64,000 nucleotides of DNA, taken from Candidatus Palauibacter sp. Lineage in GTDB: Bacteria; Gemmatimonadota; Gemmatimonadetes; Palauibacterales; Palauibacteraceae. The translations under genes were made by a program, and so were the position numbers. Positions 1-19,907 of the stretch are shown here, piece after piece. The stretch is from positions 417,011 through 481,010 of the forward strand of contig NZ_OZ244149.1 in the NCBI RefSeq assembly GCF_965216145.1, in the 5' to 3' direction. Position 1 is the stretch's first letter; each line of letters starts with the position of its first letter. Under the pieces are notes generated by a model that had not been told where the DNA came from, did not search any database, and worked only from the letters and a program-made list of their open reading frames with translations.

Positions 1-2799
1 CCGGTGGGCGTGGCGCTGCACGGCGACGTGGGCGCGTTCACGAAGGACGAACGGGAGCGTCTGCTACGCGCCTTCGGCGAACGCGCCGACGAGATCAGGG
101 TCTGGGACTGGCCCGAGGCGGCGCTCACCTCTCTGGTCGACCGGTACACCCCGGGGATCCTCGCAGCCTATCTCCGGGAAGATGACCGAAGCGAGGGAAC
201 GCAAGAGGTCGCCTATCTGCTGCTCACCGCCTTGTCACGCACTTCCGTCCCCCTGCCCCTGGATACGGGACTGGTCGCGACGGTCCGGGATGGCTCTTGG
301 CGATCTCATGTAAGGAGCATGTCCCTGCGCGCGCTCCTTCGCCGCCGAGAACACGACCCCTCATGCCTCCCAGACCTGATGAGCCTGCTTGACGATCTGC
401 GGGGCGGGCGGGTGAAGGACCGCAATCACGAACTACTGGGACTGCTGCTGTGGTATCTCTATCCAGACCAGATCGGTCCGGGGAGCGTGTGGGACTACCT
501 GCTCCCCGACGACGTGCCGCTCGGTGGCTCCTACGGCTTCTTCTGGCGGAGTCAGCTCGTCGACAAAACGGGAGATGACGCGCCCGCGCTGGTCGACGCA
601 CTCTACGAGCGGGGGACGGGATGGCTCGAGACGGGTCCCTACGACGCGATGTCCCGGGTCGTGCACAAGCTGGTTCAGCGGGCGTTGCGCGTCAGCGGGG
701 ATGTTGCCGACACCGAGCGAGTCCTCAACTGGCTGGAGTTGATCGGTTTCGAGGCGTTCGTGTCGGGACCAAGCTCCGAGGCACTCCGGGCGATTCGCGA
801 ATGGCTCACGGCTCGTCCCGACATGCAGAAGCAACTCGCGCTTAACGGTCTCGGTCGGCATGGCGGACGCGAGAACTACCGCCCTTGGGCGTGGAGCGTC
901 CGATGGGCGGAGTTCGGTGCCGCCGCACCGGGCCAAGGATCTCCGGCGCTGCGGACGGACGCGGAGCAGCTTGCGATGCCGCCGCCCGAGCCCATCGTCA
1001 CGACCGTGCGGGAGGAGGCGGCGGAATACGTAACCGCAGCGGAACGCGAGAAGGCCGACGTCGTTTCAGCGGTGCGCGACCAACGGGGACAGTTGCCAGA
1101 CGGGAAGTGCGCGCCAGCATTGCTTGACCGGCTTGCGTCGGCGTACCACGACACCTTCCACGACCAACCCGGCGCGGATCCCGAGTCCCGCCTGCTGGGG
1201 CTTCTCGATGGAGATCGGGGAATGGTTCGGGCGGCCTTTTCCGGGTTCCGTCGCGTACTCGAGCGGGACGACCTGCCGAGTCTGCGAGAGATCATCAGGC
1301 TCGACGAGGACAATCGGAGGTCGTTCTTCGCGCTTCCTTTGCTCGCGGGGCTCGACCTGCTCGGATCCACGGCGCTCCAAGGTCGGGACGCGGCAACTGT
1401 CCTCCGGGCCATCGGCATCTACTACGTCACGCCCGTCAACCCGAACCAGCTGGCGCACCCGGCGTGGTACGACGCAATCCGTCAGACACACCCGGACCTG
1501 GTCGCCGAAGTCCTGGTCAAGGTCACCCGCTCTCGGATCCGCAGGAAGGAGGACTGCCATTATCTCTGGCGTCTGGCGCGCGACCCGGCCTACCGGAAAG
1601 TGACTCGGATCGCGGCTCCTAAGCTGTGGCGCGGATTCCCCACCAAGTGTACTGAACCGCAGATTCTGGCGCTGCGAGAACTCCTGCGGGCCGGAGTTCG
1701 CTGGGAGGCGGACGGGATCGAGGAGGCCCTGCGACGCCGGATCGATACCGATCTGGACGTGGCGCAGCGCGCATTGTGGCTCTCCGCCGGACTGTTGGTA
1801 TCGCCCGTGGAGTACGCACCGCTCGTCGTCTCTTTCGTGCAGGAAGGAGAGGAAGCGCGCGGACGCCACATCGTGGACTTTCTGGCCCCTGCGGACGACG
1901 GGTATCGGCTGCCGATGCCTTCGGGCACACGCGAGCTGCGATCTCTGATCACCCTCGTCGGACGCCGGTACGAACCGTGGGTCAGCGAGGCCAAGAGATC
2001 GAGCCCCTGGACGGACGGGAGCCGAATGAAGGCGGAGCAGCTCATTCACCGCTGGACACGCAGACTCGCCGCACGCACGGACGATGCGTCCGTCGCCGCC
2101 CTCGAAGCGTTGGTGTCGGACGCCTCGCTCAAACCGTGGCAGACGATGCTACGACGGGCCGGGGACGCGCAGATCGTAGCGCGCCGCAGCGCGACATTCG
2201 CCACCCCCAACCTTGCCGCCGTCCAGAGAAACTTGTCCGGCGGACCGCCCGCGAGCGCCGCCGATCTTACTGCCTTCGTCGCAGTCGCGTTCGAGGAAAT
2301 CGGGGAGCACCTCCGGCATGGAGACACCGACAGGTGGCGGCAATTCTGGGACGAACCGATCAGTTCCGCCGACAAGCAGCCCAAGCACGAGAACTTCTGT
2401 CGAGACCGGCTTCTCGACGCGCTACGACCGAAGCTCCCGCCCGGGGTGGACGCCCGTCGCGAGGGAAACTACGCCGAGGACAGGCGGGCGGACATCCGTG
2501 TTTCGTACGGCGGTTTCGCCATCCCCGTCGAGATCAAGAAGAACCGCTATCGGAAACTCTGGAGCGCGGCGAGCGATCAACTGGTGGCGAAATACGCACG
2601 CGATCCTGAGTCGGACGGATACGGCATCTACCTCGTACTTTGGTTGGAGCGGGAACGTACGCCGGTTCCACCGTCCGGCCCGCGACCCAAGACTCCCGAC
2701 GAGCTTCGGGATCGTCTAGAGACAGGTCTCGCCGACCGTGACCGCGTCAAGGTAAGCGTGGTTGTACTGGACGTCAGCCGCCGTGAAACGGCCAAGTAA
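1..2799 (+). CDS. Large hypothetical protein, 5' partial (>930 aa), with C-terminal PD-(D/E)xK nuclease-like motif
   Basis: ORF track 4..2799; frame is open to the window edge, so the gene probably starts upstream. No P-loop in the visible part. C-terminal segment RREGNYAEDRRADIRVSYGGFAIPVEIKK has the E ... D-hydrophobic ... E-x-K spacing of a restriction-endonuclease-like fold. Confidence 0.6.
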   Translation, partial: PVGVALHGDVGAFTKDERERLLRAFGERADEIRVWDWPEAALTSLVDRYTPGILAAYLREDDRSEGTQEVAYLLLTALSRTSVPLPLDTGLVATVRDGSWRSHVRSMSLRALLRRREHDPSCLPDLMSLLDDLRGGRVKDRNHELLGLLLWYLYPDQIGPGSVWDYLLPDDVPLGGSYGFFWRSQLVDKTGDDAPALVDALYERGTGWLETGPYDAMSRVVHKLVQRALRVSGDVADTERVLNWLELIGFEAFVSGPSSEALRAIREWLTARPDMQKQLALNGLGRHGGRENYRPWAWSVRWAEFGAAAPGQGSPALRTDAEQLAMPPPEPIVTTVREEAAEYVTAAEREKADVVSAVRDQRGQLPDGKCAPALLDRLASAYHDTFHDQPGADPESRLLGLLDGDRGMVRAAFSGFRRVLERDDLPSLREIIRLDEDNRRSFFALPLLAGLDLLGSTALQGRDAATVLRAIGIYYVTPVNPNQLAHPAWYDAIRQTHPDLVAEVLVKVTRSRIRRKEDCHYLWRLARDPAYRKVTRIAAPKLWRGFPTKCTEPQILALRELLRAGVRWEADGIEEALRRRIDTDLDVAQRALWLSAGLLVSPVEYAPLVVSFVQEGEEARGRHIVDFLAPADDGYRLPMPSGTRELRSLITLVGRRYEPWVSEAKRSSPWTDGSRMKAEQLIHRWTRRLAARTDDASVAALEALVSDASLKPWQTMLRRAGDAQIVARRSATFATPNLAAVQRNLSGGPPASAADLTAFVAVAFEEIGEHLRHGDTDRWRQFWDEPISSADKQPKHENFCRDRLLDALRPKLPPGVDARREGNYAEDRRADIRVSYGGFAIPVEIKKNRYRKLWSAASDQLVAKYARDPESDGYGIYLVLWLERERTPVPPSGPRPKTPDELRDRLETGLADRDRVKVSVVVLDVSRRETAK

Positions 2800-2878
2800 G
2801 GAAGGACCGAGAGATGAGGACTCCCGGAGACGAGCGTGAACGAGGCGCGGGACGTGAAGACGAGCATGGAGTCCCGCG

Positions 2879-3889
2879 TTGAGCGGCACCGATCGCCAGT
2901 GTCCGCTGTGTCTTCGGCAATGCGGAGGCGGCGGAGGTGAGTGGGGATATTGGTTTGATTGCGAAACGTGCGGGAAGTTCAGCGTCGAGCAGTACCTCAG
3001 GGCCAGCGACGCGACCAATGGTCTGACGGTTACACAGCGGTCCTGGCTGTCGCACTTCGCGCGGACGAAGTGGGACCTCCACGAGTCGTTGCCGAAGAGG
3101 GTTCCCGGCACCACTCCGGAGCCGACCCCTGCCGTGATCGACCGCAAGCTCGTGGAACAAGCCCGAAACGGAGACTTGGCCGTAACCCGTGCGCAGCAGG
3201 CGGCGAACGCGATCAGGCACATTGGAGATCGAGTCCTCGAGGGAGGAGGCGCCATCACTCTCCGATATGGCTCACCCAAGTTCGCAGCGGTCATCGGTGC
3301 TCCGAACTCCGGTAGTGCGCGGGAACTCATGGGCGAACTCGCCGCGGCGGACAGGGTCAAATGGAATGAACCGCCATACTTCCAAGGCGGCGAGGAACCG
3401 TATGCCAGTGCGGACCTTACGCTCACAGGCTGGGAGCAGTACGAGGAGATGAAGCACGGTTCGCTCGATGGAGGGTACGGATTCTTCGCGTGGCAATTCG
3501 GCGGCACAAGAACCGAGCCCATTTTCAAGGATGTCCTCAAGCCGGTCTTCAGGAAGCGGGGCTATCCGCTACGGGATATGAAGGATCTCTCCCAGCCCGG
3601 CCTGATCGACAACATCATGCAGGACCGGATCCGGGGCGCCTCGTTCGTCATCGTCGACCTGACCGACGGCAACCGCGGGTGCTACTGGGAGGGGGGCTTT
3701 GCACAGGCTCTCGAGAAGCCGGTCGTGTACATCTGCCATCAGGAAGCGTTCCACGACCCGGCCACGAAGCCGCACTTCGACACGAACCATTACACGGTCA
3801 TCTTCTGGGGTGCCGACAAGCCGAACGAGGAATTCGTCGAGGAGCTTATCGCGACGCTGCGGCGGCACCCCGGCGGACTGGATCTTTGA
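2879..3889 (+). CDS. Zinc-ribbon protein with C-terminal nucleoside 2-deoxyribosyltransferase-like (SLOG superfamily) domain
   Basis: N-terminal four-Cys ribbon (CPLC ... CETC). C-terminal FVIVDLTDGNRGCYWEGGFAQALEKPVVYICHQ matches the D..G...E.G.A.a..KPv signature of nucleoside deoxyribosyltransferase-like domains. Alternative (TTG) start per ORF track; 80 nt downstream of the preceding gene on the same strand. Confidence 0.6.
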   Translation: MSGTDRQCPLCLRQCGGGGGEWGYWFDCETCGKFSVEQYLRASDATNGLTVTQRSWLSHFARTKWDLHESLPKRVPGTTPEPTPAVIDRKLVEQARNGDLAVTRAQQAANAIRHIGDRVLEGGGAITLRYGSPKFAAVIGAPNSGSARELMGELAAADRVKWNEPPYFQGGEEPYASADLTLTGWEQYEEMKHGSLDGGYGFFAWQFGGTRTEPIFKDVLKPVFRKRGYPLRDMKDLSQPGLIDNIMQDRIRGASFVIVDLTDGNRGCYWEGGFAQALEKPVVYICHQEAFHDPATKPHFDTNHYTVIFWGADKPNEEFVEELIATLRRHPGGLDL

Positions 3890-4194
3890 CCGGGTTCATC
3901 GCCATGGACTGGTTGAGCGTCGGTCAGCGGACGGATGTGCTCGACTGCGGCGGCAACCGGTACGCGCAATCGACCGGCCAAGTGCGGTTCAACGTGGGGG
4001 TGAAGGCGGACTCGGAAACGGTCACGCGGTAACGGTGAACGCGGCGCTGCGCCGGGAGGAGCTGCTGCGCCCGTTGAGCGCGCCGTGGCTGACGTGTTAC
4101 TCTACCGGTGTGCCGCAAGCGGAGATCGCGGAAGCAGCGGAAAGATGGGTCAATCTGCCGGGTGAACCGATGAACAGAGAAGGGAACGTCACAG

Positions 4195-4419
4195 ATGCGT
4201 AATCCACCAACATCTAGTTACGACATTGTTAGTGGTACATTCGATCTTTCTATCGACGGAAGCACCGTAACCGTAAAGGGCGATATCAGCAGTACCTACA
4301 ACACGGCCCTTATCCCCATAAATGTATCGTTCGATGTGGACAACAACCCTATGGACTATTCACTACGGGAGTTGGGCAAAATGGCCATCGTGCAGCACTT
4401 TCAAAAGAATGAGAGTTGA
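4195..4419 (+). CDS. Small hypothetical protein (74 aa) in an AT-rich patch
   Basis: ORF in a locally AT-rich segment that contrasts with the GC-rich surroundings; no recognisable motif. Could be non-coding. Confidence 0.3.
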   Translation: MRNPPTSSYDIVSGTFDLSIDGSTVTVKGDISSTYNTALIPINVSFDVDNNPMDYSLRELGKMAIVQHFQKNES

Positions 4420-4517
4420 GGTCAATTGAGGTCCAAGCTCCACTAGTTGAAGACAACCACTTACATAGGGTGTGTAAATTGGCGACCCGTCCAAAAAGCC
4501 GGGAACACCTCAGGATT

Positions 4518-5354
4518 CTATCCGAGGCTGTCGCGCAGGATTCTCTCCAATTCGTCAACTACGGCCCGCATGTGCAGCTTGTCTTCCGGGCGCTCTTCAC
4601 TATTGCGTATCGTATCGACGACATTTGACCATGTCTTATGGATTTCGGGCAATCTGAGCATCTTGGGATCCGCATTTAGTGCTACGTGTAGCAGCTCTTC
4701 CGCGCGAGTAAGGTCGAAAGCGTCATACGCATTAATTTTTTTGATACAGGCAAGATGCTCATTGGGGAAGTCCAACATCTGATAAAGATTATCAATATCT
4801 CTTGACAGATAAGCAGTATCCTGAAGAGCGCTTACAACTTGCTCTGCGATGTCCGACATGTTTGACTGGTGTCGGATCGCGATGGCCTCCTCAACGGCGT
4901 TGGCCAAATTGTCCCGAATCCACTCGTACCGTTCTTCGCTACTTCGCCCGGGAGGATCGTAACACTTCACCACACGGGAAAGATCTTCATGTGCGCCGAC
5001 AGCGATCCTGAACGGATTCGGACCCCTTGCGGCCACATGTCCATCCCGGTTTCGCAGGCCGTGGATGCGAATCCCGACGACGCCCATCCCATCCTTCCAG
5101 GACTTCTCAATCTCGTATTCGACCCATGGCCGTCCGGTGGTGTGGGTTCCCACCAAGACCACCGTGCAGGAGCGTGCTCGCATCTGGTCGACGATCCACG
5201 CCCTGATGGCCGGAGCACCCTGACGCGTCAATTCCTCCCAACTGGTATCCGTCGCCGGTCTGTTTCCCTCAACCACGCCGATGTTCCGAACCGTCGCCGC
5301 TCGCCAGCGGTCGGTTTCGTAGTTAAAGCTGTAGAACACCCTTCGCTTTAGCAT
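4518..5354 (-). CDS. TIR-like domain protein (DUF1863 / ThsB-like) with AT-rich C-terminal helical extension
   Basis: Start set at the internal ATG (MLKRRVFYSFNYETDRW...), residue 94 of ORF 4518..5633. N-terminal VFYSFNYETD ... CTVVLVGTHTTGRPWVEYEIEKSW ... GVVGIRIHGL fits the flavodoxin-like TIR/DUF1863 pattern. Confidence 0.65.
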   Translation of the reverse strand: MLKRRVFYSFNYETDRWRAATVRNIGVVEGNRPATDTSWEELTRQGAPAIRAWIVDQMRARSCTVVLVGTHTTGRPWVEYEIEKSWKDGMGVVGIRIHGLRNRDGHVAARGPNPFRIAVGAHEDLSRVVKCYDPPGRSSEERYEWIRDNLANAVEEAIAIRHQSNMSDIAEQVVSALQDTAYLSRDIDNLYQMLDFPNEHLACIKKINAYDAFDLTRAEELLHVALNADPKMLRLPEIHKTWSNVVDTIRNSEERPEDKLHMRAVVDELERILRDSLG

Positions 5355-5454
5355 GCCGTTCCTCCACGGCTCCCATCCACTATCACCGGCGACCGCGGGG
5401 GCGACATCGGTCGGAGGAGCGAGAACGAGATAAGATGCAACTCGGACGCCAGTT

Positions 5455-8190
5455 CTATCGCGCGGGCCGGACGCCTCCCTTGCGGCGCAGACCGTAGCCG
5501 ATCCGGAAGACATCCGGGACATCGACGCGGTCATCCCGGAGGCGACGGAAGATACCCAGGGACTCCAAAGCCTCGCGGAGTTCATCGTGGTCATAATCCA
5601 TATGCGGCAGCGGGAGCCGCCACCCGTCTCCACTACCCGCCTGGGCCAGCTGCTTCAAGACGCGTCGCTCACGCCACAGATGAACGACTTCCTCGAAATC
5701 ACACGGAACAACCCGTCCGGAGAGCGGTTGCATCAGCACCTGCACCCATGGATAATCCTCCTGTAGCTCCCGAACCCGCGTCGTGGACGCCTCCCGCACA
5801 CCGTGCTTGATGCTCTGGTAGTGAAGGGCGTAGCCATGATCCGGATGGCGTTCATGAGAATCTTCCGCCGCTGAGCGCAACGCCGTGAGAAACGAGCGCG
5901 GACTGACCTTGCCCCCGGCGTCGGCGAGGTGGTTTGGGATCCATGTGTACGGGTATCCGCGTCTCCGATCAGTGCCCATCCACGGGCCCGCGAATTCGTG
6001 GAACTTGTCGCGCTGGGCCCCCTCGTCGCGGTCGAGCGGATACGGCACTTCGAAGCGCGGTGCCGTATCGTCATCAGTCGTGGACCAGTGTCCGTCCTGC
6101 AAGCGCGGACGGACGAGGTCACCTCGTGGACCGTTGGCCAGGGAATGCCAAAGCAGGCCGTAGAGATCCCGGCGCGGCCAGCTGAGATCGACAGCCGACG
6201 ACAACACTTTCGAAGCGTCCGGAAAGTCCGTGATCCGCCGCTCGTCCACCTGATCAGTTCTCAGGAAGATCTTCGCGCGCAAGCGGCGATACGGACGCAT
6301 GTCGAGGGCGTGCTCCAGCAATCCTCGAATCAGCTCGGACGCAGTCTGCCAGTCGGAGGCGGCGCGATCCAGAGCGTCAAATAGCACGACGGAATACACA
6401 CCCCTTGAGTCCAGTTCGACATCGATAGTCCGCAGGAGGTCGAGGACGACACTCGGGTCATCGAGGACGTACCTCGCGCGTTCAAGCCACGTATCGAACT
6501 GTCGTATCGGATGGTCGGCACCCGCCACCGCGCACGCATGCACGGTTCGCCAGATGATCCGGGGCTCCACGTTGTTGGCGATTAGTCGACAAAGATCGTC
6601 CCTCACCGGATAATCGCCCGGCACATTGGAGACACCGAATCCCGACTCGACGACTGAATCTTCGTTCAAAGGAAAGCCCCGCACCTCTCGCCCCAGCGAG
6701 CGACGAACCTCGGGACTCTGCAGGGCGCGCCACCAGAATGTCTTGCCTGAGCCGCGCATTCCAGTGACGAGCATCGTGTCGGGGTGCATGGCCTTTCGAT
6801 GCGAAGGCGGGATGTACACGGCCGACGACGGGACGGGCTCGCCGTAGCTCGCCGGATCGGGCAGCTCGCTGAACGCGAGGCGCACGGTCTCGGCCCGGGT
6901 CGGGTCGCCGACTGGCTCGGGGCTTCGGTAGAGCAGGTCGAACCGTCGGAGGAACTCCCTGTACGCTTGGGCCACCGTCGTTCGCTCCAGCTTCCGGAGA
7001 GAAATTCCGGCCGCGAACCCTCGTGTCCAATGGATCACCAGCGGATCATGCTGCCCCTCCTCGGACGACAGGTCAGCCGACACCCCCTCATCCGTTTCCC
7101 CGAGATCCACGATCTCGTCCTGCAGGCGATCCCGAAGGAGGATTCGTGCGTTTTCCCGGAACCGTTCGACGTACCGCTCGGTATCCGTCTCGGGCGTCAA
7201 GGCGGAGACGATCGACAGGCGTTCGCGTATCCGGGATGCCATGTTTGTGCGCGCCCAATGATCGAACAGAATCCCGTAGTCCGTCCAATGGCTGTCGGAG
7301 TCGACGGCGAACAGCATCACCTCCGCGTCCAGATCCGTCACCGTTGCCGCCGCAATATCGTGGAGGCCGCTCCGGCTCTCGATGAGCACGACGGTCGGGC
7401 TGAACTCCGTTTCCAGGTTCACCACCAACCGCTTCAAGCGACTCGTCCAAGGATCGATCGCCGTATCCATGTACGTGCGCCCGAGCTTTGCGAGGTATTC
7501 CCCCGGCTTCCTGCCGTGCGCCGGCGCCACCAGCACACGTCCCGGCAAGTCATGAGCCCAAGAGGGCTTCCCCGTCATCCGGCTCACGACATGATCTCCC
7601 TGTCCGACCAATTCTTCGACGAACCAGTCCGTGACGCCGAACTCCGGCTCGGCCGGGGGTTCCAACATGGCCGACGCCAGCCCGGGCGACTCTAGGTCCA
7701 AATCGATGACAAGCACATCCTCCGCCTGCCGGGCGAGGTGCCACGCCAACACCGCCGCCGTCGTGCTGCGCCCCACCCCACCCTTCACCGAGTATAGGAC
7801 GTAGCGGGCCGGGTGGTGTTCGCTCGACGGGTCCGGGACTGTCCACCATTCTTGGCCGACGACGAGCCGGTCGGCCCAATGAACGCCGGGCCTGATCAAC
7901 TGCGCCGTGTCGCCCAGCGTCTCCAGCAACGCGGGATCTACGAAGAGCACTGTCTTCTGCGGCAGGTGTCCGTGGGCCGCGAGCGCATCCGCCAAGCGAC
8001 TCGCCAAGCGGCTCAGCACTTCGCCGAGTTCGCGATCATCCTGGGCTGCTTCCGATACCGATATGCCGACCTTGCCGAAGAGGTTGCGCACGAGGTATAG
8101 CGGCGGTGCGTCGGCTGGGATCTCCATCCCTTCCAGCACCTCCGATACGAGCCGCCGCACTTGGTCGAACGGAACGAAGGTGTCGCTCAT
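5455..8190 (-). CDS. Dual-NTPase protein: ParA/MinD-like domain with deviant Walker A (KGGVGRST) plus a second P-loop NTPase (GMRGSGKT)
   Basis: Start at internal ATG (MSDTFVPF...), which overlaps the stop of the upstream 140-aa gene (ATGA). YSVKGGVGRSTTAAV followed by DVLVIDLDLESPG is ParA/Soj-like; LVTGMRGSGKTFWWRAL with later VVLFDALD gives a second Walker A/B pair. Confidence 0.7.
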   Translation of the reverse strand: MSDTFVPFDQVRRLVSEVLEGMEIPADAPPLYLVRNLFGKVGISVSEAAQDDRELGEVLSRLASRLADALAAHGHLPQKTVLFVDPALLETLGDTAQLIRPGVHWADRLVVGQEWWTVPDPSSEHHPARYVLYSVKGGVGRSTTAAVLAWHLARQAEDVLVIDLDLESPGLASAMLEPPAEPEFGVTDWFVEELVGQGDHVVSRMTGKPSWAHDLPGRVLVAPAHGRKPGEYLAKLGRTYMDTAIDPWTSRLKRLVVNLETEFSPTVVLIESRSGLHDIAAATVTDLDAEVMLFAVDSDSHWTDYGILFDHWARTNMASRIRERLSIVSALTPETDTERYVERFRENARILLRDRLQDEIVDLGETDEGVSADLSSEEGQHDPLVIHWTRGFAAGISLRKLERTTVAQAYREFLRRFDLLYRSPEPVGDPTRAETVRLAFSELPDPASYGEPVPSSAVYIPPSHRKAMHPDTMLVTGMRGSGKTFWWRALQSPEVRRSLGREVRGFPLNEDSVVESGFGVSNVPGDYPVRDDLCRLIANNVEPRIIWRTVHACAVAGADHPIRQFDTWLERARYVLDDPSVVLDLLRTIDVELDSRGVYSVVLFDALDRAASDWQTASELIRGLLEHALDMRPYRRLRAKIFLRTDQVDERRITDFPDASKVLSSAVDLSWPRRDLYGLLWHSLANGPRGDLVRPRLQDGHWSTTDDDTAPRFEVPYPLDRDEGAQRDKFHEFAGPWMGTDRRRGYPYTWIPNHLADAGGKVSPRSFLTALRSAAEDSHERHPDHGYALHYQSIKHGVREASTTRVRELQEDYPWVQVLMQPLSGRVVPCDFEEVVHLWRERRVLKQLAQAGSGDGWRLPLPHMDYDHDELREALESLGIFRRLRDDRVDVPDVFRIGYGLRRKGGVRPAR

Positions 8191-8609
8191 GGCGTCCCTC
8201 CCTGCGCAGCCCATTGAACCATCAGCCGAACCTCTGACGCCGCCCGACGATGCGGCTCGACGTAGGCCTCATCGAAGTTCCCCCGGCTGGCGTAGCGGTT
8301 ATGGTGCGACCAATCGGAGAACGGTTCCCCGCCCGGAAGCTGCGCAAGCAGCGCGCCCGCGCCTCGCTGCGCCGCGAACTGGTCGAACACGTTCCACAGT
8401 TCCTCGATATGTACGCGATGCGCCCGCTCTTCCGGCGCGCCGTCGGGGCGAACGAGCATACCAAGATTCTGCATGAGCGACTTCAGGCCGCACTCGGCGC
8501 TGAACCCGTACAACTGATCCGCGTTGGCCCAGCGACGCGCGGCCGACAGGTACTCGGCATCTTCCCAGTGTCGCTCGTGCGCGTCCTCGAAGTCCGCCGC
8601 GTAGATCAT
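8187..8609 (-). CDS. Hypothetical protein (140 aa), translationally coupled to the dual-NTPase gene
   Basis: Clean ORF starting MIYAADFEDAHERH; stop overlaps the downstream start. N-terminus resembles the methyltransferase C-terminal tail and the 65-aa orphan ORF. Contains RAHRVH, a weak R-x4-H HEPN-like hint only. Confidence 0.55.
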   Translation of the reverse strand: MIYAADFEDAHERHWEDAEYLSAARRWANADQLYGFSAECGLKSLMQNLGMLVRPDGAPEERAHRVHIEELWNVFDQFAAQRGAGALLAQLPGGEPFSDWSHHNRYASRGNFDEAYVEPHRRAASEVRLMVQWAAQGGTP

Positions 8610-8803
8610 GCTAGCTCATGGCCCCGCGCAGCGCGCGTCGTGTTCAGATCCATCAGACGAGCGAGCACCTCATTGCGCACGTCGCCCGGCGGTCGGGTCA
8701 ATAGGGTGTAAGTGCCATGAGGCGGCGACCTTCCGTGGCGCTCATGAGCGTCCGTGAAGTCAGCCGGATGGATCACGAGTCCCCGGCAAGAATAGATCGG
8801 CAA
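8606..8803 (-). pseudogene. Orphan 65-codon ORF: probable remnant of a gene 3' end, homologous to the methyltransferase C-terminus
   Basis: Translation ...HPADFTDAHERHGRSPPHGTYTLLTRPPGDVRNEVLARLMDLN aligns with the methyltransferase C-terminus ...HETDEDERRRARAPHRYRWPNEVRDEVLARLMALN. Alternative start, no upstream context; lies in the 418-nt gap after the truncated ATPase. Confidence 0.3.
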
Positions 8804-9027
8804 TCCGCATGTTCACCCTCCATGGTCGGCTCGTCGCCGTCTGCGGTGCGGTTTCGGCGGTCATGCATGATACTGTGGCGCTCCAAGTTAGACGCCGGAG
8901 CGGTTTCTTGCTCCACCGCAGCCTCGCACGGCTACTGCGGGACATCGCAAGAGGTCGTGTCGATCGACCCTCTTCCGAGAGCTCCGCGGCGGAACTCCGT
9001 CCGGTGAGCGTCCGTTTCCTAAGGGGG

Positions 9028-9822
9028 TCACGGCTGTTCTTGAGGGGGTGTAGCGCTTTCGGCAGCACAGGCGATGGCGTCAAGCTTCTCGCTCACTTCC
9101 GGATCGACATCCGCAGGCGGCATGTGGCCGACGAGCCGGTAGAAGTTGCCCTTCGGCATGAGGTTTGGCAGGCCCAGCTTCGAGAAGTACGCGGTGAGCA
9201 GCGGCTTCAGGAACTCCGTGCTCACCTTCAGGTCGGCGCCCCACGGCGACGGCTTCCCGAGACGCCGCACGTTCACGGCGCCCTCGTCGAGCCGGGTCTC
9301 GGCCGCAGCCAGCCCCGACATCGGCGGCAGGAAGGCCATCCTCACGCTCCCCGCCTCGTCGGGGACGGGCATGCGGTCGGGAACGCGATCCTCCGTCAAC
9401 CGCAGCGGACGGCAGTACACCGACTCGTCGTTCGCGTAATCGAACTCGAGCCCGCACGTCCAGGCACGCCCGCGGGTCACCCCCTCGACGATGATGTCGA
9501 TGCGGATGTTCCTCGTTTGCTGTTTACCGCCTACGTACCGCACATCTCGCACCCGAAGATCCCGCCACGCGAGCTTAACGCTCGGAATTGGAATGGACAC
9601 GAGATCGCGACGGTTGATGGTCACGCCCGGGCGTTTCTCGGGCGTTCTCTTGCCGGCCCGCTTGGCGTTCCACTGGGTCAGCCCCGTGTGCCACAGGGCG
9701 AGCGCCTGCATGGCGGAGGTCTTGCCCGAATTGTTGGGTCCGATGAAGACGACCGGGCTCCCGAGCTCGACTTCGACGTCTTCGAAGCGCTTGAATCTTC
9801 GAATGGTCAGCTTTGTCAGCAT
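9028..9822 (-). CDS. AAA ATPase N-terminal fragment (AAA_15/AAA_21-like, as in GajA/PtuA/OLD-family ATPases), probably truncated
   Basis: Start at internal ATG (MLTKLTIRRFKRFEDVEVELGSPVVFIGPNNSGKTSAMQAL). Walker A present, but no Walker B, signature or H-loop before the stop at 264 aa. Confidence 0.5.
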   Translation of the reverse strand: MLTKLTIRRFKRFEDVEVELGSPVVFIGPNNSGKTSAMQALALWHTGLTQWNAKRAGKRTPEKRPGVTINRRDLVSIPIPSVKLAWRDLRVRDVRYVGGKQQTRNIRIDIIVEGVTRGRAWTCGLEFDYANDESVYCRPLRLTEDRVPDRMPVPDEAGSVRMAFLPPMSGLAAAETRLDEGAVNVRRLGKPSPWGADLKVSTEFLKPLLTAYFSKLGLPNLMPKGNFYRLVGHMPPADVDPEVSEKLDAIACAAESATPPQEQP

Positions 9823-9901
9823 ACGACGCCACCACTTCCCGTCCGGTCGCTTGCATGCGGCTTCAGCCAGCAGAGCAGCGGAACCGCGCATGGCGCACTG
9901 C

Positions 9902-11272
9902 TCATCTGACCCCCTGGAACTCCGCATCCACTCGTTCCAAGTCACGTCTCAGGTCATTCGCCGCTTGGCGCGCAAGGCGGAGCCGTTCCTTCTGATTCCG
10001 GCACCGTTCGCCCAGTTCCGAATAGCATATGGACAGATTGAGAAGTGACGAGAACAGGCCTTGAGCTGCCGTGTCGACCGCCTTGAGATCTTCCGGCGAA
10101 AAAGGCAGATCGCTTCCGCGCTCACCAAGTTCTTGGCCTTGCCCCGCCAGCTCGCGTAGACGCAGATCGCACTCGTTCGGCGTGCTCTTACCCGCTTCGA
10201 GATCGGAGAGGACGCGGATCACATTTTGCACGAGAGGACGGCTGGCTGAAACAAGTGTCTTGATCTCCCTTAGCATGGGCCCCTTCTTGCCCGTATGCTG
10301 TCGATGGAATTCTCTCCAGTGCCCGTACTGGTGATTCCAAAGAATCGAGACACCATCCCAAACTTCGTCACCGTCCCACGGCATCGGACGACAGGATGGA
10401 TCGAGGCCCGGATCAACCCACTGAGTTCGCGCAATCCAGTTCGCGTGACGAACGTCGTCGTGTCCGCCCGCCACATAGAGGTATACGACGTCTGCTCTAT
10501 GCCCGGACCAAAGCGCCTCAAGTTGAGGACTTCGGTGGTATTCCTCTTCGCGAATCTCCGGAAGAGCCCGACTGATCACGTCCCTAACGCCATCGCGCCC
10601 CGCGTGGCGATCAACTACCAGCACCGCTGAATAACGCTTGGCACCCGCATGACTCACGTCCTCGAGCCGCACGATCTCGTACGGCAGGTCGCCCTTCACC
10701 GGCACTTCGAGGATTGCGTCGGGCGCACGACGCTGGCCACAGGCACACGTCCCGTCGTTACGGAACAGCTTCCCGTCCCGAGGGCAGATCTTCTCGTATG
10801 CGATGAGGAGCCGGGCGCAATCAACCGTATCGACGATGAGGTGTGGGACAGTCGCGTCGCTGGCCGTCTGCGCAAAGTCGCGTCGCGCATCATCCTGAAT
10901 GTCCCCTACGGCCATCAGCACTGCCAAACCGAGGTCCGGTATCGTTCGGAGCTTAGCGAACTGATGAGAAACGATTTTGCTCGTAACCTTCGGGAAGGAA
11001 GGACCCTTCAAGACGAAGCCGGCGGTAACCGGACGACCACGTAGGACGATCCGAGTCGTAACGATGTCGGCGATCTCCGTTGGACCGTGTGGCGTTTCGT
11101 TCGGGTCGAAGAGGATCTCACGAACTGCTGATTCCAGCGCACGTTCGTTCAACCGCCGAACCTCCGCGAGCACGTCGTCAGACACGCCTGTGGCTGGAAT
11201 CCGAACCACCTTGGCGAACTGATCGATTTCACCGAGCGCCACCAAACGGGCCCGGTTCACGCCGATCCCCAT
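9902..11272 (-). CDS. Hypothetical protein (456 aa) with Cys cluster and C-terminal coiled coil; candidate partner of the methyltransferase
   Basis: Start at internal ATG (MGIGVNRARL...), 29 nt after the methyltransferase stop. Contains CPRDGKLFRNDGTCACGQ and a charged C-terminal helical region. No confident family assignment. Confidence 0.5.
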   Translation of the reverse strand: MGIGVNRARLVALGEIDQFAKVVRIPATGVSDDVLAEVRRLNERALESAVREILFDPNETPHGPTEIADIVTTRIVLRGRPVTAGFVLKGPSFPKVTSKIVSHQFAKLRTIPDLGLAVLMAVGDIQDDARRDFAQTASDATVPHLIVDTVDCARLLIAYEKICPRDGKLFRNDGTCACGQRRAPDAILEVPVKGDLPYEIVRLEDVSHAGAKRYSAVLVVDRHAGRDGVRDVISRALPEIREEEYHRSPQLEALWSGHRADVVYLYVAGGHDDVRHANWIARTQWVDPGLDPSCRPMPWDGDEVWDGVSILWNHQYGHWREFHRQHTGKKGPMLREIKTLVSASRPLVQNVIRVLSDLEAGKSTPNECDLRLRELAGQGQELGERGSDLPFSPEDLKAVDTAAQGLFSSLLNLSICYSELGERCRNQKERLRLARQAANDLRRDLERVDAEFQGVR

Positions 11273-11303
11273 CCGGTCGTGAAAGACCTGTTCTGCCTTG
11301 TTC

Positions 11304-14300
11304 TCAAGTCGTTCCTCCCGCCGACAGGTGTTGCGTACCCTGCGCACGTTCGGAATTTAGAGCCATCAGGCGGGCCAACACCTCGTCCCGCACCTCGTTG
11401 GGCCAGCGATATCGATGGGGTGCCCTTGCACGGCGACGCTCATCTTCGTCGGTCTCATGGTTGAGCAGGAACTCGCATCGGGTAGGGATGTCGGACCAGC
11501 CGTACGCATCGAGGACGACCCGATCGATGTCCGCGTGAAGCTCGCGGAGCCTCGATACCGCCGGATCCGTTTCGTTCCGGTCGTGGAACCGGTTGTACGT
11601 CTTGGTCAAGCCCTCCTGGTTGTGAAGCATGAGGTCGCCGCGAAACTCGTAGTATGCCTTGCCGACTCGCTCCCGGACGGGATCTGCATGCCAGTCTGGA
11701 GGAAACGGGAAAGTCTCAAAGCAGTCGGACGGCGTGTACCGCAGCCGTTCCTCAAGCGTCGACCCGAAAAAGCGTGCCCAAACCTCGTGAACGCGGGATT
11801 GAAGGACGCAAAACGCTGCGTAAGTGTCCATGGAAAAAATCACAAGAGTGTTGGCGAAAACCATTCGGGCTGGAAGAAACGCTAATGCCAGATGGGGCGT
11901 GGCACCGCAGTTGACGGCCAACACTCGATTCAAATCCGCGATGGTCGCGTAGAGTCCTGCAGCTTTTTCGGCGTGTTGCCACCAACGCTCTCGACGCACC
12001 TTACGGTTCTGTCGCTCACGGTCGGGCTTCACCTTTTCTTCTAGAATCTGCACTAACTCTGGCCATCGCTCGCGGCACTCGTCCTGCCGACGCTTGCCAA
12101 AGTTGATCACGTAGCGGTGATGCGCTTGCGCGAGGCTCGTGTTGACCTCCTGCCCGCCAATGTAGGGGAAGATCACTTGCGCATTGTGCGGATCCTCAGC
12201 GATAAGCCTCCGCATTTCGGCCAAGGGCGTGGCCACTCCCTTGGTGTCGGTGTCGTCGAACGTGAAGCCCATGCCGAGGACGATGCTCCCCTGAAAGCTC
12301 TGCTCCGCGTTTTCCTTGAGCCGCGGCGGGTCGTCGTTCCCACCTGCGTGGAACAGAAATGCCGTGATCCGTTCGACGGCGGCGTCATCGAGCGATTTCT
12401 GGTGCCCGAACCTCCCTTTCACGATGTGCAGGACGCTGACCACTACAGCCGCAACGCCCGGCCACTTGAAGCGGGTTTGCGCGCGGTAGATCTCTCCGCC
12501 GCGCGTGCAGATCCAGCGGAGGCCCGTGGACCGGGTGTCGCCTTGCGAAATCGTGTTCGTCGCGATGAGGCCCAGCGTGCCTTGTTTGCGCAGCAGGTTG
12601 AACGACCGCCGGAAGAAGTGGGCGACCAAATCCGCGTTGCCGTGGCTCCGCGCGTGCAGTTCCTTGAGCCACAGCGGGTAGCCGGGGACGTTCGAGGCCG
12701 CGACGGTGTTCTTGCCCGCGAACGGCGGGTTCCCGACGAAGGCGTCAAAGCCCGGGTTCCGGCGCTCGAACACCTCCGGGAACTCGATCTCCCAGTGGAA
12801 CGGGGCGAACGGCGTGGTCTCCTTCCGTTTCGCGGCGAGGCGCCCCCCGTGGGAGAGAACGGCGAGGCGTTCCGTATCGCTGTCGCCCAGAAGAGACGCG
12901 AAGTGCTGCCGCCGGCGGGCCTCCCGCTGCCTCGCTCTTGTCTCGAGGAAGAACGCCTCCAGCGCCAGATCGCCGAAGAACCGGACGTCCGTCAGCGCCG
13001 CGTTCGCGTCGTCCAGCTTGTCTCGAAGTTCCCGCTGGTCGATGTCGGGCGGCGCGTCCCTGATCTCCCCGCGTAGCGCGACCACGCGGTCCACTGCGTC
13101 CGAGACCACGGTGTTCAGCTCCAGCTGGGGCGGCAGGGATCCCCTCTTCCAGGTGAAGGCGGCGATCTGCGGCTTCGCCAGGCCGACCAGGGAGTCGCCG
13201 TCGCGGAGGGCGTGGTCCACGAAGGTGAGCGGTTCGTCCTTGGCCAGGGTGGCCAGCCACAACGACATCTTGGCGAGGTCCACCGCCATGGGGTTGCGGT
13301 CCACGCCGTAGAGGCAGCGATGCGCCACGAGACGGCGGGCGAACAGATCTTCGTCCTCCCCGGACGGGAGAGCGGGGAGCGTTCCGTGCATCCGCCATGC
13401 GGTGACGAGATGGTCGCCCAGTTGGCGGCAGGCCTCGACGAGGAAGGCGCCCGAACCCATGGCGGGATCGCAGACCTTGAGATCGAGGATCTGCTCGGCG
13501 CGGGGCGGGCCGCCGTCTCCGAGGCGTTCGAGGATCGGTTCCAGCGCTTGCCGCACGATCGGTTCGGTGAGTTCGCGCGGCGTGTAGTGCGATCCCGAGC
13601 GCCGCCGCGCCTCGCTGGGCTGGAGGATCATCGCGCCGCGCGGCACCAGATCCGGTGTGGCCGCCGCGTCGATGACGTTGTGCAGGGAGGCGTGCGCGTC
13701 GGCGAGCGTTTGCGCCGCGCGGAGGGGCTTGCTCACGGTGGGCGTCAGCTTTCGGCCCGTCCGGTCAAGAATCCATTTCGGGCGATCGACGGGCGCAACA
13801 TCCAAGAGCAGTTCCAGATCCACCGTTGTCGAGGCTCCGAGCTTCTTCTGCGCCTTGACGGCGGCGGACCGGCCCGTCGCGGTCTCCAGCCGGAACCCCA
13901 TCATCGTCTCGTACACGGAGCCGATCTGCTCCACGTCGAGCGCGCGGTACGAGATCCGTTCGCCGTCGAGGACCAGCAGCTTGTCGAGCACCCGGTAGAT
14001 CGTTCCGTCCGGCACCAACGGAACGTCGATCCCCTCGTGCACCTGCGGTGCGCCGCTCCCGCGCCATCCCTCGAGGAACGGGAACCGACTCGGGCTGAAC
14101 AGTTCTCCGCGCCGCGGCGGGAGTCTCATTCCGTCGCACTCCGCCCCGTCGTGGACCATGCGAAACAGCACGACGAGCTGTGCCCACGCCCCGTAGCGCT
14201 GGTCCATCGTGTCCGGGTTGAGCGCCGCGTCCTCCCTCAGCCTCTCGTACAGTCCGCCCAGCGAATAGGAGCCGAGGAAGGTCGCGTCGTCCGACAACAT

Positions 14301-18589: not shown

Positions 18590-18831
18590 GCGGAGCGTCC
18601 AAGGGCACGTACCGGGTCATTCCGGTTGGGCGACAGGATGACCGACACCTCAGCCCTCCGGCAAGCTCTCGCGCGTCCCTCCCGCCGTGCCCTCCCATGT
18701 TGCATACTCGCTCCTCGTAGCCAAGCACCCCGCCTCCGATGCAACCTTTCGGATGTCGCCCGGTTTTCCGCATGATCGTATCGTTCGACCGGCTCGACCT
18801 GTCACCGCGTGCGTCCGTCAAAACGCTTATC
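18590..18831. promoter_or_regulatory. Divergent intergenic region between the helicase operon (-) and the SIR2-like gene (+)
   Basis: About 240 nt non-coding spacer between divergent starts; appears to contain a short inverted repeat (GTTGCAT ... ATGCAAC). No promoter consensus confidently identified. Confidence 0.3.
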
Positions 18832-19875: not shown

Positions 19876-19907
19876 TATGGGATCGGGGTCGTTCAGCGGT
19901 CTGGTGC

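What the first reader, a model, noticed from the sequence alone, without database searches (positions are those of the whole stretch)
4190..4930. AT-rich mosaic: small ORF plus the C-terminal half of the TIR-like gene
A run of several hundred nucleotides is conspicuously AT-richer than the rest of the window. It covers the 74-aa ORF and the 3' third of the TIR-like gene, while that gene's TIR-coding 5' part is GC-rich. This suggests a recently swapped C-terminal domain or an inserted foreign segment.
Basis: seen in the sequence. Interest (0 to 1): 0.45.

Follow-up and report, generated by a model that had tools for sequence, protein, structure and literature searches.

The report
AT-rich add-on domain plus junction filler
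The AT-rich stretch is real but is two unrelated things lying side by side: an old, conserved extra helical domain on the end of a phage-defence TIR gene, and a strain-specific scrap of filler DNA, holding an orphan small ORF, between two converging defence operons.

Summary
Window 4190-4930 has GC 0.48 against 0.68 for the window, the lowest stretch in 64 kb. It has two causes.

(1) 4518-4865 encodes residues 164-278 of a 278-aa ThsB-like TIR protein (5354..4518, minus strand). This is a confidently predicted helix bundle that more than 2,300 homologues of about 165 aa lack. Five other lineages carry it, always in the same operon (PDC-M28A, fused M28B/C ATPase, then TIR). It is under purifying selection, and it is AT-shifted in all of them. 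It is therefore an old, clade-wide fusion, not a recent swap in this genome. One relative, L004, does show homologous exchange with a breakpoint at the domain border. The usual partner of this TIR family, the PDC-M50A membrane protein (70 of 80 loci), is absent here. The only other relatives of the domain are an N-terminal add-on of a Menshen NsnA protein and two stand-alone genes. I infer a sensor or regulatory module.

(2) 3892-4517 is variable filler between two convergent defence systems. It holds a decayed lipoprotein-gene remnant and a unique AT-rich 370 bp with an orphan 74-aa ORF. A near-identical strain has an IS3 element inserted there.

Interest is modest.

The parts
4150..4930 (.). 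AT-rich zone, the lowest-GC stretch of the 64-kb window. It is a composite of the two items below.
   Evidence: GC 0.48 against 0.678 (about -4.4 SD). Boundaries come from 100-bp windows.
4518..5354 (-). Gene for a 278-aa ThsB-like TIR protein with a C-terminal helical add-on (CTD). It is the last gene of the PDC-M28-like operon.
   Evidence: ATG at 5354 follows a GGAGGA site. It equals P0001, 'TIR domain-containing protein, Candidatus Palauibacter sp.'. Pfam ThsB_TIR scores 84.9 bits; PADLOC ThsB1 1.2e-58 and PDC-M50B 4.3e-55 over aa 3-163.
4866..5354 (-). TIR-like domain, aa 1-163 (GC 0.60, GC3 0.70).
   Evidence: It gives a full-length match to the ThsB models. The fold matches EcThsB 8wcf (E 8.7e-14, 38% id, TM 0.88). 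Y8 and E81 are nearly invariant in 43 homologues.
4518..4865 (-). CTD, aa 164-278: a helix bundle of five main helices (plus one four-residue helix), with no Pfam family. GC 0.475, GC3 0.52.
   Evidence: The model has pLDDT 94. The last TIR helix continues into it. It is conserved in P0002-P0006. dN/dS is 0.09-0.48. GC3 z = -6.2 against the amino-acid-matched expectation. A profile search of 1.84 billion proteins finds only 3 further credible relatives.
4701..4865 (-). CTD-a (aa 164-218): the AT-richest core (GC 0.42, GC3 0.44), and the tract exchanged by recombination in relative L004.
   Evidence: The breakpoint is at about 4863-4866, and Fisher p = 1.3e-13 for the change of quartet topology.
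4195..4419 (+). Orphan 74-aa ORF, convergent with the TIR gene. Its coding status is unproven.
   Evidence: The only relative among 5.8 billion proteins is a 99% copy in L008. There are no Pfam, PADLOC or NCBIfam hits. GC3 is 0.54 (z = -4.9). It is the only open frame of the six.
4420..4517 (.). 98-bp spacer between the ORF and the TIR stop codon. It is the insertion site of an IS3-family element (with a nested IS110) in the near-identical strain L008, at 4504-4506.
   Evidence: the flanks overlap by 3 bp (AAC) and the IS ends read TGAGGTGGTC...GACCACCTCA.
3892..4127 (+). Decayed remnant of an NlpB-like lipoprotein gene (GC normal). The gene is intact (164 aa) next to the TIR gene in relative L001.
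   Evidence: tblastn gives 43% identity over 42 aa (E 2e-10), plus a weak (E 0.037), collinear, frame-shifted second match. The L001 protein hits Pfam Lipoprotein_18. Homology of the 336-aa gene to L092 and L093 ends at 3891.
2879..3889 (+). 336-aa gene with an N-terminal Cys-rich motif and a weak nucleoside-deoxyribosyltransferase/TIR-like C-terminus. It is a regular companion of the DUF8371 system. Its composition is normal.
5455..8214 (-). 919-aa fusion of PDC-M28B (KGGVGR-motif ParA/MinD-like ATPase) and PDC-M28C (Sll1717-type P-loop ATPase).
   Evidence: PADLOC M28B 3e-119 (aa 14-428) and M28C 9.8e-162 (aa 442-918). NCBIfam NF047398 and NF047389.
8187..8609 (-). PDC-M28A, 140 aa, the first gene of the operon.
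   Evidence: PADLOC 5e-48.
4..2799 (+). 3' part of a DUF8371 gene (cut by the window start), the convergent neighbouring system.
   Evidence: Homologous to the PF28130 proteins of L001, L003 and L008.

Best explanation
The AT-rich zone is a composite of two adjacent features with separate histories.

(A) 4518-4865 encodes a helical C-terminal domain (CTD) of about 115 aa.
- It was fused once, at the base of a small clade, onto a ThsB-like TIR protein of the widespread PDC-M50B family.
- In this clade the TIR gene sits as the last gene of a PDC-M28-like operon (M28A, fused M28B/C double ATPase, TIR::CTD).
- The clade has lost the small membrane protein, PDC-M50A, that normally accompanies this TIR family.
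- About half of the GC deficit comes from the domain's amino-acid make-up (low GC2). The other half comes from AT-biased synonymous sites, a bias shared to different degrees by all clade members. The bias is either a residue of a lower-GC origin or is actively maintained.
- Inferred function: the CTD is a sensor or regulatory module that gates the TIR enzyme within the M28 system. It would be analogous to the optional N-terminal 'sensor' domains of Menshen NsnA, one of which is its only fused homologue.

(B) 3892-4517 is non-conserved filler at the point where two convergent defence operons meet.
- It consists of a pseudogene remnant and a unique AT-rich 370 bp with an orphan 74-aa ORF.
- This junction is rearranged between strains and is hit by an IS element in one of them.

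Shown: composition, gene structure, conservation, selection, synteny, recombination and fold. Inferred: the single-fusion scenario, the loss of M50A, and the function of the CTD.
For: Composition:
- The zone is the lowest-GC stretch of the window.

Domain limits and fold:
- The ThsB models cover aa 3-163.
- The CTD model has pLDDT 94, and a continuous helix (aa 139-192) joins TIR and CTD.

Rarity and conservation of the CTD:
- 2,336 homologues are found. Only P0001-P0006 carry the extension.
- All 80 genome loci have fewer than 20 extra residues.
- All CTD-bearing genes lie after M28A and M28BC and form one clade.
- The CTD is AT-shifted in all lineages (GC 0.47-0.56 against 0.59-0.64 for the TIR part).
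- GC3 z-scores are -6.2, -5.8, -3.4, -2.4 and -2.2. The expected GC from amino acids alone is 0.56.
- dN/dS is 0.09-0.48.
- The identity profile of the window against its relatives shows no break at the junction.

Evolutionary context:
- PDC-M50A lies next to the short TIR in 70 of 80 loci and is absent from the window.
- The order M28A-M28BC-M50A-TIR occurs in Longimicrobiales MAGs L016, L042 and L084. L025 has a truncated M50A.

Relatives of the CTD:
- The N-terminus of P0123 is homologous (E 7e-13). P0123 is NsnA within an NsnABC (Menshen) system.
- PMC12065111 proposes that NsnA N-terminal add-ons, including all-helical ones, are infection sensors.
- ThsB proteins act as infection sensors (PMC11312562).

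Filler:
- Homology to relatives stops at 4518 on one side and 3891 on the other.
- L003 has 15 bp between the two genes.
- A lipoprotein-gene remnant is present.
- The ORF is an orphan.
- L008 has an IS insertion there.
Against: - The strict co-occurrence with M28A/BC fits an adaptor role equally well.
- The persistence of low GC3 despite saturated synonymous divergence within the clade is not obviously explained by slow amelioration alone. The homologous module in NsnA is not AT-rich (GC3 0.79), so the source of the bias is unresolved.
- The clade is small (six sequences, all from metagenomes), so the 'single fusion' rests on a neighbour-joining tree without support values.
- Whether the 74-aa ORF is translated is unknown.
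Confidence: 0.72

Rival explanations
1. One foreign AT-rich block (about 4150-4930) was recently inserted. It replaced the end of a normal 165-aa TIR gene and created a read-through fusion.
For: The AT-rich composition is continuous across the ORF, the spacer and the gene's 3' end. Most homologues end at about 165 aa.
Against: The part inside the gene is homologous and collinear in L001-L005 at 56-88% DNA identity. Homology ends at the stop codon, 4518, and the part outside the gene is not shared. The CTD is under purifying selection and folds confidently. No repeats or mobility genes flank the zone in the window.
Confidence: 0.03
2. The CTD is chiefly a docking or adaptor domain that tethers the TIR enzyme to the M28B/C double ATPase. 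It would replace the lost M50A partner, making TIR the effector of the M28 system rather than a sensor.
For: TIR::CTD co-occurs with M28A/BC in all eight CTD-bearing loci found (the window and L001-L008, though L006 and L007 duplicate L005 and L008 nearly duplicates the window), and M50A is lost. A rigid helical connector joins TIR and CTD. M28 and M50 gene sets already sit in one operon in relatives.
Against: Homologous modules occur without any M28 genes: on NsnA in a Menshen system and as stand-alone genes. In L025 a short TIR follows M28BC with a truncated M50A and without any CTD. The CTD evolves faster than the TIR domain, and part of it was exchanged between alleles, as expected of a specificity module.
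Confidence: 0.3
3. The low GC of the CTD is just a by-product of its amino-acid composition (a helical domain rich in D, E, K, N, I and L) and carries no historical or functional signal.
For: GC2 is 0.31 against 0.49 in the TIR part. Amino-acid-matched resampling lowers the expected GC from 0.64 to 0.56.
Against: Observed GC is 0.475 and GC3 is 0.52 against 0.76 expected (z = -6.2). A GC3 deficit is present in all five lineages tested.
Confidence: 0.1
4. The AT-rich synonymous sites and spacer are maintained by selection at the DNA or RNA level. Possible reasons are termination or collision control between convergent transcripts, binding of a nucleoid-associated silencer, or slow translation of the linker helix.
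For: The GC3 deficit persists although synonymous divergence within the clade is saturated. The most AT-rich tract lies at the 3' end of a convergent gene pair.
Against: No terminator-like, promoter-like or Rfam element is found in 2700-5600. The size of the deficit varies widely between lineages. The neighbours downstream differ in every relative.
Confidence: 0.12
5. The 74-aa ORF is a real small gene of foreign origin, for example a regulator or immunity factor for a neighbouring defence gene, rather than a chance ORF in filler DNA.
For: It is the only open frame of six in this stretch, its GC3 > GC1 > GC2 order is that of coding DNA, and a weak AAGGGA site lies 9 nt upstream of the ATG. It is retained in L008.
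Against: It has no homologue beyond a 99% copy in 5.8 billion proteins and no family hit. It is absent from all other loci with the same flanking genes. Only one substitution separates the two copies, so selection cannot be tested.
Confidence: 0.3

Closest known systems
Thoeris ThsB TIR proteins (Pfam PF08937; solved EcThsB 8wcf, BcThsB 6lhy)
   Same: Residues 1-163 match the family HMMs end to end and match the fold of 8wcf (38% id, TM 0.88). Tyr8 and Glu81 are conserved, as in the Tyr/Glu active site described for the ThsB class linked to TM-macro effectors.
   Different: No ThsA effector (SIR2-SLOG or TM-macro) is adjacent. A 115-aa helical domain is fused C-terminally. The gene is embedded in an ATPase operon.
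PADLOC candidate system PDC-M50 (M50A small membrane protein plus M50B TIR)
   Same: The TIR domain matches M50B at 4.3e-55. 70 of 80 of the closest genome homologues have M50A alongside.
   Different: M50A is absent from the whole window. The TIR carries the CTD instead and follows M28B/C.
PADLOC candidate system PDC-M28 (A, B, C)
   Same: All three models match strongly and in order.
   Different: B and C are fused into one 919-aa protein, and a fourth gene (TIR::CTD) is appended. The system has no published mechanism (no paper found).
Optional N-terminal 'sensor' domains of Menshen NsnA (Type II Menshen, PMC12065111)
   Same: The only fused homologue of the CTD (P0123, E 7e-13) carries it at this position in an NsnABC system. 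That paper lists all-helical NsnA-N domains and proposes that they sense infection.
   Different: Here the module is C-terminal to a TIR enzyme, not N-terminal to a ParB/DUF262 domain. I could not check identity with any named NsnA-N family.
Variable junctions and 'gene graveyards' of defence islands
   Same: The filler lies between two convergent defence operons. It differs between strains, holds a pseudogene remnant and an orphan ORF, and is hit by an IS element in one strain.
   Different: Nothing notable. This part is ordinary.

Membership tests
ThsB_TIR / TIR-like domain (PF08937) | Sequence match above the curated Pfam threshold | tested here: met
   84.9 bits against a cut-off of 21.2, aa 7-101. 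PADLOC ThsB1 1.2e-58 over aa 3-163.
ThsB_TIR / TIR-like domain (PF08937) | Flavodoxin-like TIR fold resembling solved ThsB structures | tested here: met
   Foldseek hits 8wcf (E 8.7e-14, TMt 0.88), 9b7d and 6lhy (E about 1e-7). The model has pLDDT 88.5.
ThsB_TIR / TIR-like domain (PF08937) | Conserved catalytic glutamate (plus Tyr in the TM-macro-linked class) | tested here: inconclusive
   Y8 and E81 are nearly invariant in 43 homologues. Their equivalence to Y8/E89 of EcThsB2 (PMC11204291) is inferred from position and was not superposed.
ThsB_TIR / TIR-like domain (PF08937) | NAD+ cleavage or signal synthesis | not testable with these tools
   This needs a biochemical assay.
Thoeris system | Adjacent ThsA effector (SIR2-SLOG or TM-macro) | tested here: not met
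   No ThsA, SIR2 or Macro hit among the neighbouring genes in PADLOC or Pfam.
PDC-M50 (PADLOC candidate) | M50B TIR component | tested here: met
   PDLC04688 4.3e-55.
PDC-M50 (PADLOC candidate) | M50A membrane protein encoded alongside | tested here: not met
   tblastn of the L016 M50A against the whole window gives no hit at E <= 1. It is present in 70 of 80 other loci.
PDC-M28 (PADLOC candidate) | A, B and C components in one operon | tested here: met
   M28A 5e-48, M28B 3e-119, M28C 9.8e-162. B and C are fused, and A overlaps BC by 28 nt.
PDC-M28 (PADLOC candidate) | Demonstrated anti-phage activity | not testable with these tools
   No paper mentions PDC-M28.
Menshen NsnA-N accessory (sensor) domains | Sequence homology of the CTD to an NsnA N-terminal add-on | tested here: met
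   Profile hit to P0123 aa 6-97, E 7.3e-13 in 1.84 billion proteins. P0123 aa 105-468 matches NsnA at 3.8e-114, with NsnB and NsnC downstream.
Menshen NsnA-N accessory (sensor) domains | Located in an NsnABC system | tested here: not met
   The window gene is in an M28 operon, and no Nsn hits appear among the neighbours scanned.
   This row is marked 'not met' for the CTD half, 4518-4865, which is present in all five related lineages. For the other half, 3892-4517, the feature is met: that segment is found only in the window and in the near-identical L008.
   No significant direct or inverted repeats, and no paralogous copy in the window. The IS is present only in L008.

The most novel reading that the evidence does not exclude
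The CTD founds an undescribed family of small helical infection-sensing or regulatory modules that is shuffled between unrelated defence enzymes (a ThsB-like TIR here, Menshen NsnA elsewhere). The operon M28A, M28B/C, TIR::CTD would then be a distinct four-domain defence system. In it, a Thoeris-type TIR has been cut loose from its membrane effector and wired to a KGGVGR/Sll1717 double ATPase. The exchange of a CTD tract exactly at the domain border (seen in L004) would be the way its specificity is renewed.
Probability: 0.3. Interest if true: 0.55.

Novelty: new variant of a known kind. Interest (0 to 1): 0.35.

Why it matters
- As a compositional anomaly it is mostly ordinary. Defence islands are mosaics, and junctions between operons collect debris.
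- It does point to an unannotated, very rare helical domain: six TIR-fused members and three other credible relatives in a library of 1.84 billion representative proteins.
- That domain marks a rewiring event. A TIR of the common two-gene PDC-M50 type lost its membrane partner and became part of an uncharacterised double-ATPase system (PDC-M28).
- Natural intermediates of this series exist (M28 with M50A and TIR; M28 with truncated M50A and TIR; M28 with TIR::CTD). They give a concrete set of constructs for testing how bacterial TIR enzymes are coupled to sensors and effectors.
- It also cautions that a sharp GC step inside a gene can be an old, stable property of a domain rather than a sign of recent transfer.

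Tried and rejected
Searches that found nothing:
- BLAST of 4100-5000 against plasmid and phage collections: no match.
- Rfam at a permissive threshold: only one sub-threshold chance hit. Promoter and terminator scans: zero sites.
- Repeat search and self-BLAST of the spacer: nothing beyond chance. I therefore dropped the idea of a MITE or IS remnant, apart from three TGAGGT motifs.
- Metagenome scan for further CTD loci: alignment A3 was too diverse to use, and A2 found none.
- Literature searches for PDC-M28, PDC-M50 and KGGVGR: nothing relevant.

Ideas I dropped:
- I first read the 89% against 99.97% identity to L008 as a recombination joint at 4505. Finer analysis showed about 100% identity from about 2250 onward, with the break inside the DUF8371 gene instead.
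- I considered that the window/L003 allele of the CTD-a tract was imported. The distances fit L004 as the recombinant instead.
- P0126, a eukaryote-like coiled-coil repeat protein, was discarded as a spurious profile hit.
Full report
OBSERVATION

The window averages GC 0.678. The stretch 4190-4930 has GC 0.482. Among all 741-bp windows (mean 0.678, SD 0.045) the minimum, 0.478, starts at 4131. Only one other place in the window (about 18.7-19.9 kb) drops below 0.55. In 100-bp steps the fall begins at about 4150 and the recovery comes at about 4870-4950. The anomaly is real and is the strongest in the window.

GENE STRUCTURE

The organism is a Gemmatimonadota MAG. The protein is identical to an NCBI entry named 'TIR domain-containing protein [Candidatus Palauibacter sp.]'.

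The maximal ORF 4518..5633 (371 aa) overstates the gene. The real start is the ATG at 5354, five bases after GGAGGA, which gives 278 aa.

Upstream on the same (minus) strand lie two genes:
- A 919-aa protein that is a fusion of PADLOC PDC-M28B (3e-119; NCBIfam KGGVGR-motif AAA ATPase) and PDC-M28C (9.8e-162; Sll1717-type P-loop ATPase).
- A 140-aa PDC-M28A (5e-48).

On the plus strand, converging on the TIR gene, lie:
- The end of a DUF8371 gene (4..2799).
- A 336-aa gene (2879-3889).
- The 74-aa ORF (4195-4419).

The first 19-20 kb of the window are a stack of defence-type genes with GC 0.57-0.69, against about 0.69-0.74 further on. They include an AAA_15 ATPase, an MmeI-like methyltransferase and an SNF2 helicase.

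THE GENE HALF OF THE ZONE

Domain limits and fold:
- ThsB/TIR models cover residues 3-163 end to end (PADLOC ThsB1 1.2e-58; Pfam ThsB_TIR 84.9 bits).
- Residues 164-278 (window 4518-4865) match no Pfam, NCBIfam or PADLOC model.
- GC3 along the gene drops from 0.70-0.80 to 0.37-0.60 at residues about 161-170.
- A model of residues 162-278 alone is confident (pLDDT 94, pTM 0.84): a bundle of five main helices plus one four-residue helix.
- In the full-length model (pLDDT 88.5) the last TIR helix runs on without a break (aa 139-192) into the bundle.
- The TIR part superposes on the crystal structure of EcThsB (8wcf: E 8.7e-14, 38% identity, TM 0.88) and on other ThsB structures.
- Tyr8 and Glu81 are nearly invariant among 43 homologues. 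They resemble the Tyr/Glu active site described for the ThsB class linked to TM-macro effectors (PMC11204291).

Is the C-terminal domain a recent swap? The evidence says no for this genome:
- Of 2,336 homologues, nearly all are 160-170 aa. Only six (P0001-P0006, 50-85% identical) carry the extension. P0006 is full length once a GTG start is used.
- All six lie after M28A and M28BC in their contigs.
- In a neighbour-joining tree of TIR domains they form one clade.
- In each of them the CTD DNA is AT-shifted relative to the TIR part: GC 0.47-0.56 against 0.59-0.64.
- Resampling codons from the operon's own usage, amino acid by amino acid, predicts GC 0.56 and GC3 0.76 for the window's CTD. The observed values are 0.475 and 0.52 (z = -6.2). 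So roughly half of the deficit is amino-acid content and half is synonymous.
- The synonymous deficit recurs in L003 (z = -5.8), L005 (-3.4), L001 (-2.4) and L002 (-2.2).
- dN/dS of the CTD is 0.09-0.48.
- The window's divergence from each relative is congruent between TIR and CTD, with the CTD simply faster.

- At depth, the CTD is an accretion on a family that lacks it. All 80 genome loci recovered have fewer than 20 extra residues.
- The domain border is a recombination joint in a relative. Among window, L003, L004 and L001, L004 sides with window/L003 at 60 sites against 6 upstream of 4866, but with L001 at 23 against 6 in 4865-4700. In the quartet counts, the topology window+L003 | L004+L001 is backed by 37 of 39 informative sites in the CTD, against 28 of 101 upstream (Fisher p = 1.3e-13). 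The distances indicate that L004, not the window, is the recombinant.

The exchanged tract (aa 164-218, window 4701-4865) is also the AT-richest core: GC 0.42 in the window, 0.46 in L003 and 0.49-0.54 in the others.

WHERE THE TIR CAME FROM

In 70 of the 80 genome loci the short TIR is flanked by a membrane protein of about 140 aa that matches PDC-M50A (1e-40). The family is therefore the TIR component of the two-gene candidate system PDC-M50. The window has no M50A anywhere.

In the Longimicrobiales MAGs L016, L042 and L084 the order is M28A-M28BC-M50A-TIR, with gaps of tens of bases. In L025, M50A is truncated to 56 codons.

The window clade (M28A-M28BC-TIR::CTD) looks like the end of this series. 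That ordering is inferred, not shown.

WHAT THE CTD MIGHT DO

A profile of the six CTDs, searched against 1.84 billion representative proteins, found only four hits beyond the family itself:
- P0123 (E 7e-13), where the module is N-terminal.
- P0124 and P0125, two stand-alone proteins of 105-119 aa.
- P0126, a spurious coiled-coil hit.

P0123 is NsnA of a Menshen system: NsnA 3.8e-114 over aa 105-468, followed by NsnB and NsnC. PMC12065111 reports that 23% of NsnA proteins carry optional N-terminal domains, including all-helical ones, and proposes that they are extra infection sensors. ThsB proteins are themselves the infection sensors of Thoeris (PMC11312562).

The CTD occurs on two unrelated defence enzymes, evolves faster than the TIR domain, and has undergone allelic exchange. 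On these grounds I favour a sensor or regulatory module that gates the TIR. A docking role towards M28B/C is the main rival, supported by the strict co-occurrence with M28.

The NsnA-borne module is not AT-rich (GC3 0.79). The stand-alone P0125 gene is AT-shifted (GC 0.58 in a 0.68 locus). The source of the bias is unresolved.

THE NON-GENE HALF OF THE ZONE

Extent of the filler:
- Homology of all relatives ends at the TIR stop codon, 4518.
- Homology of the 336-aa gene to its relatives (L092, L093) ends at 3891.
- In L003 the DUF8371 gene and the TIR gene are 15 bp apart.
- In L001 the gap holds a 164-aa NlpB-like lipoprotein gene and a 67-aa gene.
- So 3892-4517 is strain-specific filler.

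Contents of the filler:
- Its first part (3892-4127, normal GC) is a frame-shifted remnant of that lipoprotein gene: 43% identity over 42 aa (E 2e-10), plus a weak (E 0.037) collinear second match.
- The AT-rich 4150-4517 is unique. It has no repeat, no paralogue, and no plasmid or phage match.
- The 74-aa ORF has only a 99% copy in L008 among 5.8 billion proteins. Its coding status cannot be decided from the sequence.

L008, from another metagenome, is about 100% identical to the window from about 2250 to 11548. It carries an IS3-family element with a nested IS110 inserted at window 4504-4506, twelve bases past the TIR stop. The junction therefore tolerates insertions.

VERDICT

It is wrong on recency and on there being a single event.

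The gene half is a new variant of a known kind: a ThsB-like TIR with an undescribed helical module inside an uncharacterised candidate system. The other half is ordinary defence-island debris. Interest is modest (0.35).

Noticed in passing
window 4504-4506; L008 7211-10080: A near-identical strain (L008) has an IS3-family element, itself interrupted by an IS110, inserted 12 nt past the TIR stop codon with a 3-bp duplication (AAC). The target, ACCTCAGG, and two TGAGGTC motifs at 4416-4435 resemble the IS ends (TGAGGTGGTC). This may indicate insertion next to end-like sequences.
   Followed up: partly
window 1-2250 versus 2250-11548 (L008 2553-17124): The window and L008 are about 100% identical from about 2250 onward but only 55-70% identical over the body of the DUF8371 gene. 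This is a sharp allelic replacement inside that gene which keeps its last ~180 codons.
   Followed up: partly
L025 5824-5994; L016, L042 and L084 about 5570-6004: In Longimicrobiales MAGs the PDC-M28 and PDC-M50 gene sets form one operon-like array (M28A-M28BC-M50A-TIR). In L025, M50A is truncated to 56 codons, a possible intermediate towards the window's architecture.
   Followed up: partly
window 5455-8214: PDC-M28B and PDC-M28C, separate models in PADLOC, are fused into one protein of 909-939 aa here and in all relatives examined. M28A overlaps its start by 28 nt.
   Followed up: no
window 2879-3889; L092, L093, L008: The 336-aa gene has an N-terminal CxxC...CxxC motif and a weak nucleoside 2-deoxyribosyltransferase/TIR-like C-terminus. 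In all four loci examined it follows the AAA_14/DUF4143 ATPase and DUF8371 pair, so it may be a third component of that system. In L092 it abuts an integrase and mobilisation module.
   Followed up: partly
window 5601-6558: Within the M28B/C gene, quartet sites favour window+L001 against L003+L004 (45 of 73). This is a different topology from both the TIR and the CTD, so the whole operon is a recombination mosaic among related strains.
   Followed up: partly
window 18600-19950: This is the second lowest-GC stretch of the window (about 0.53-0.57). It includes a 378-aa ORF (18739-19875, plus strand) with no Pfam hit, at the border between the lower-GC defence island and the GC 0.70-0.74 region beyond.
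   Followed up: no
L005 9734-10549 (also L006 and L007): The database protein P0006 (182 aa) is a mis-called start. The gene is full length (TIR plus CTD) from a GTG about 270 nt upstream.
   Followed up: yes
L011 10001-10644: A stand-alone CTD-like gene (105 aa) overlaps a 109-aa gene of unknown family by 4 nt. Both have GC 0.58 in a 0.68 genome that also carries a homologue of the 336-aa gene. It is a possible free-living form, or donor, of the module.
   Followed up: no
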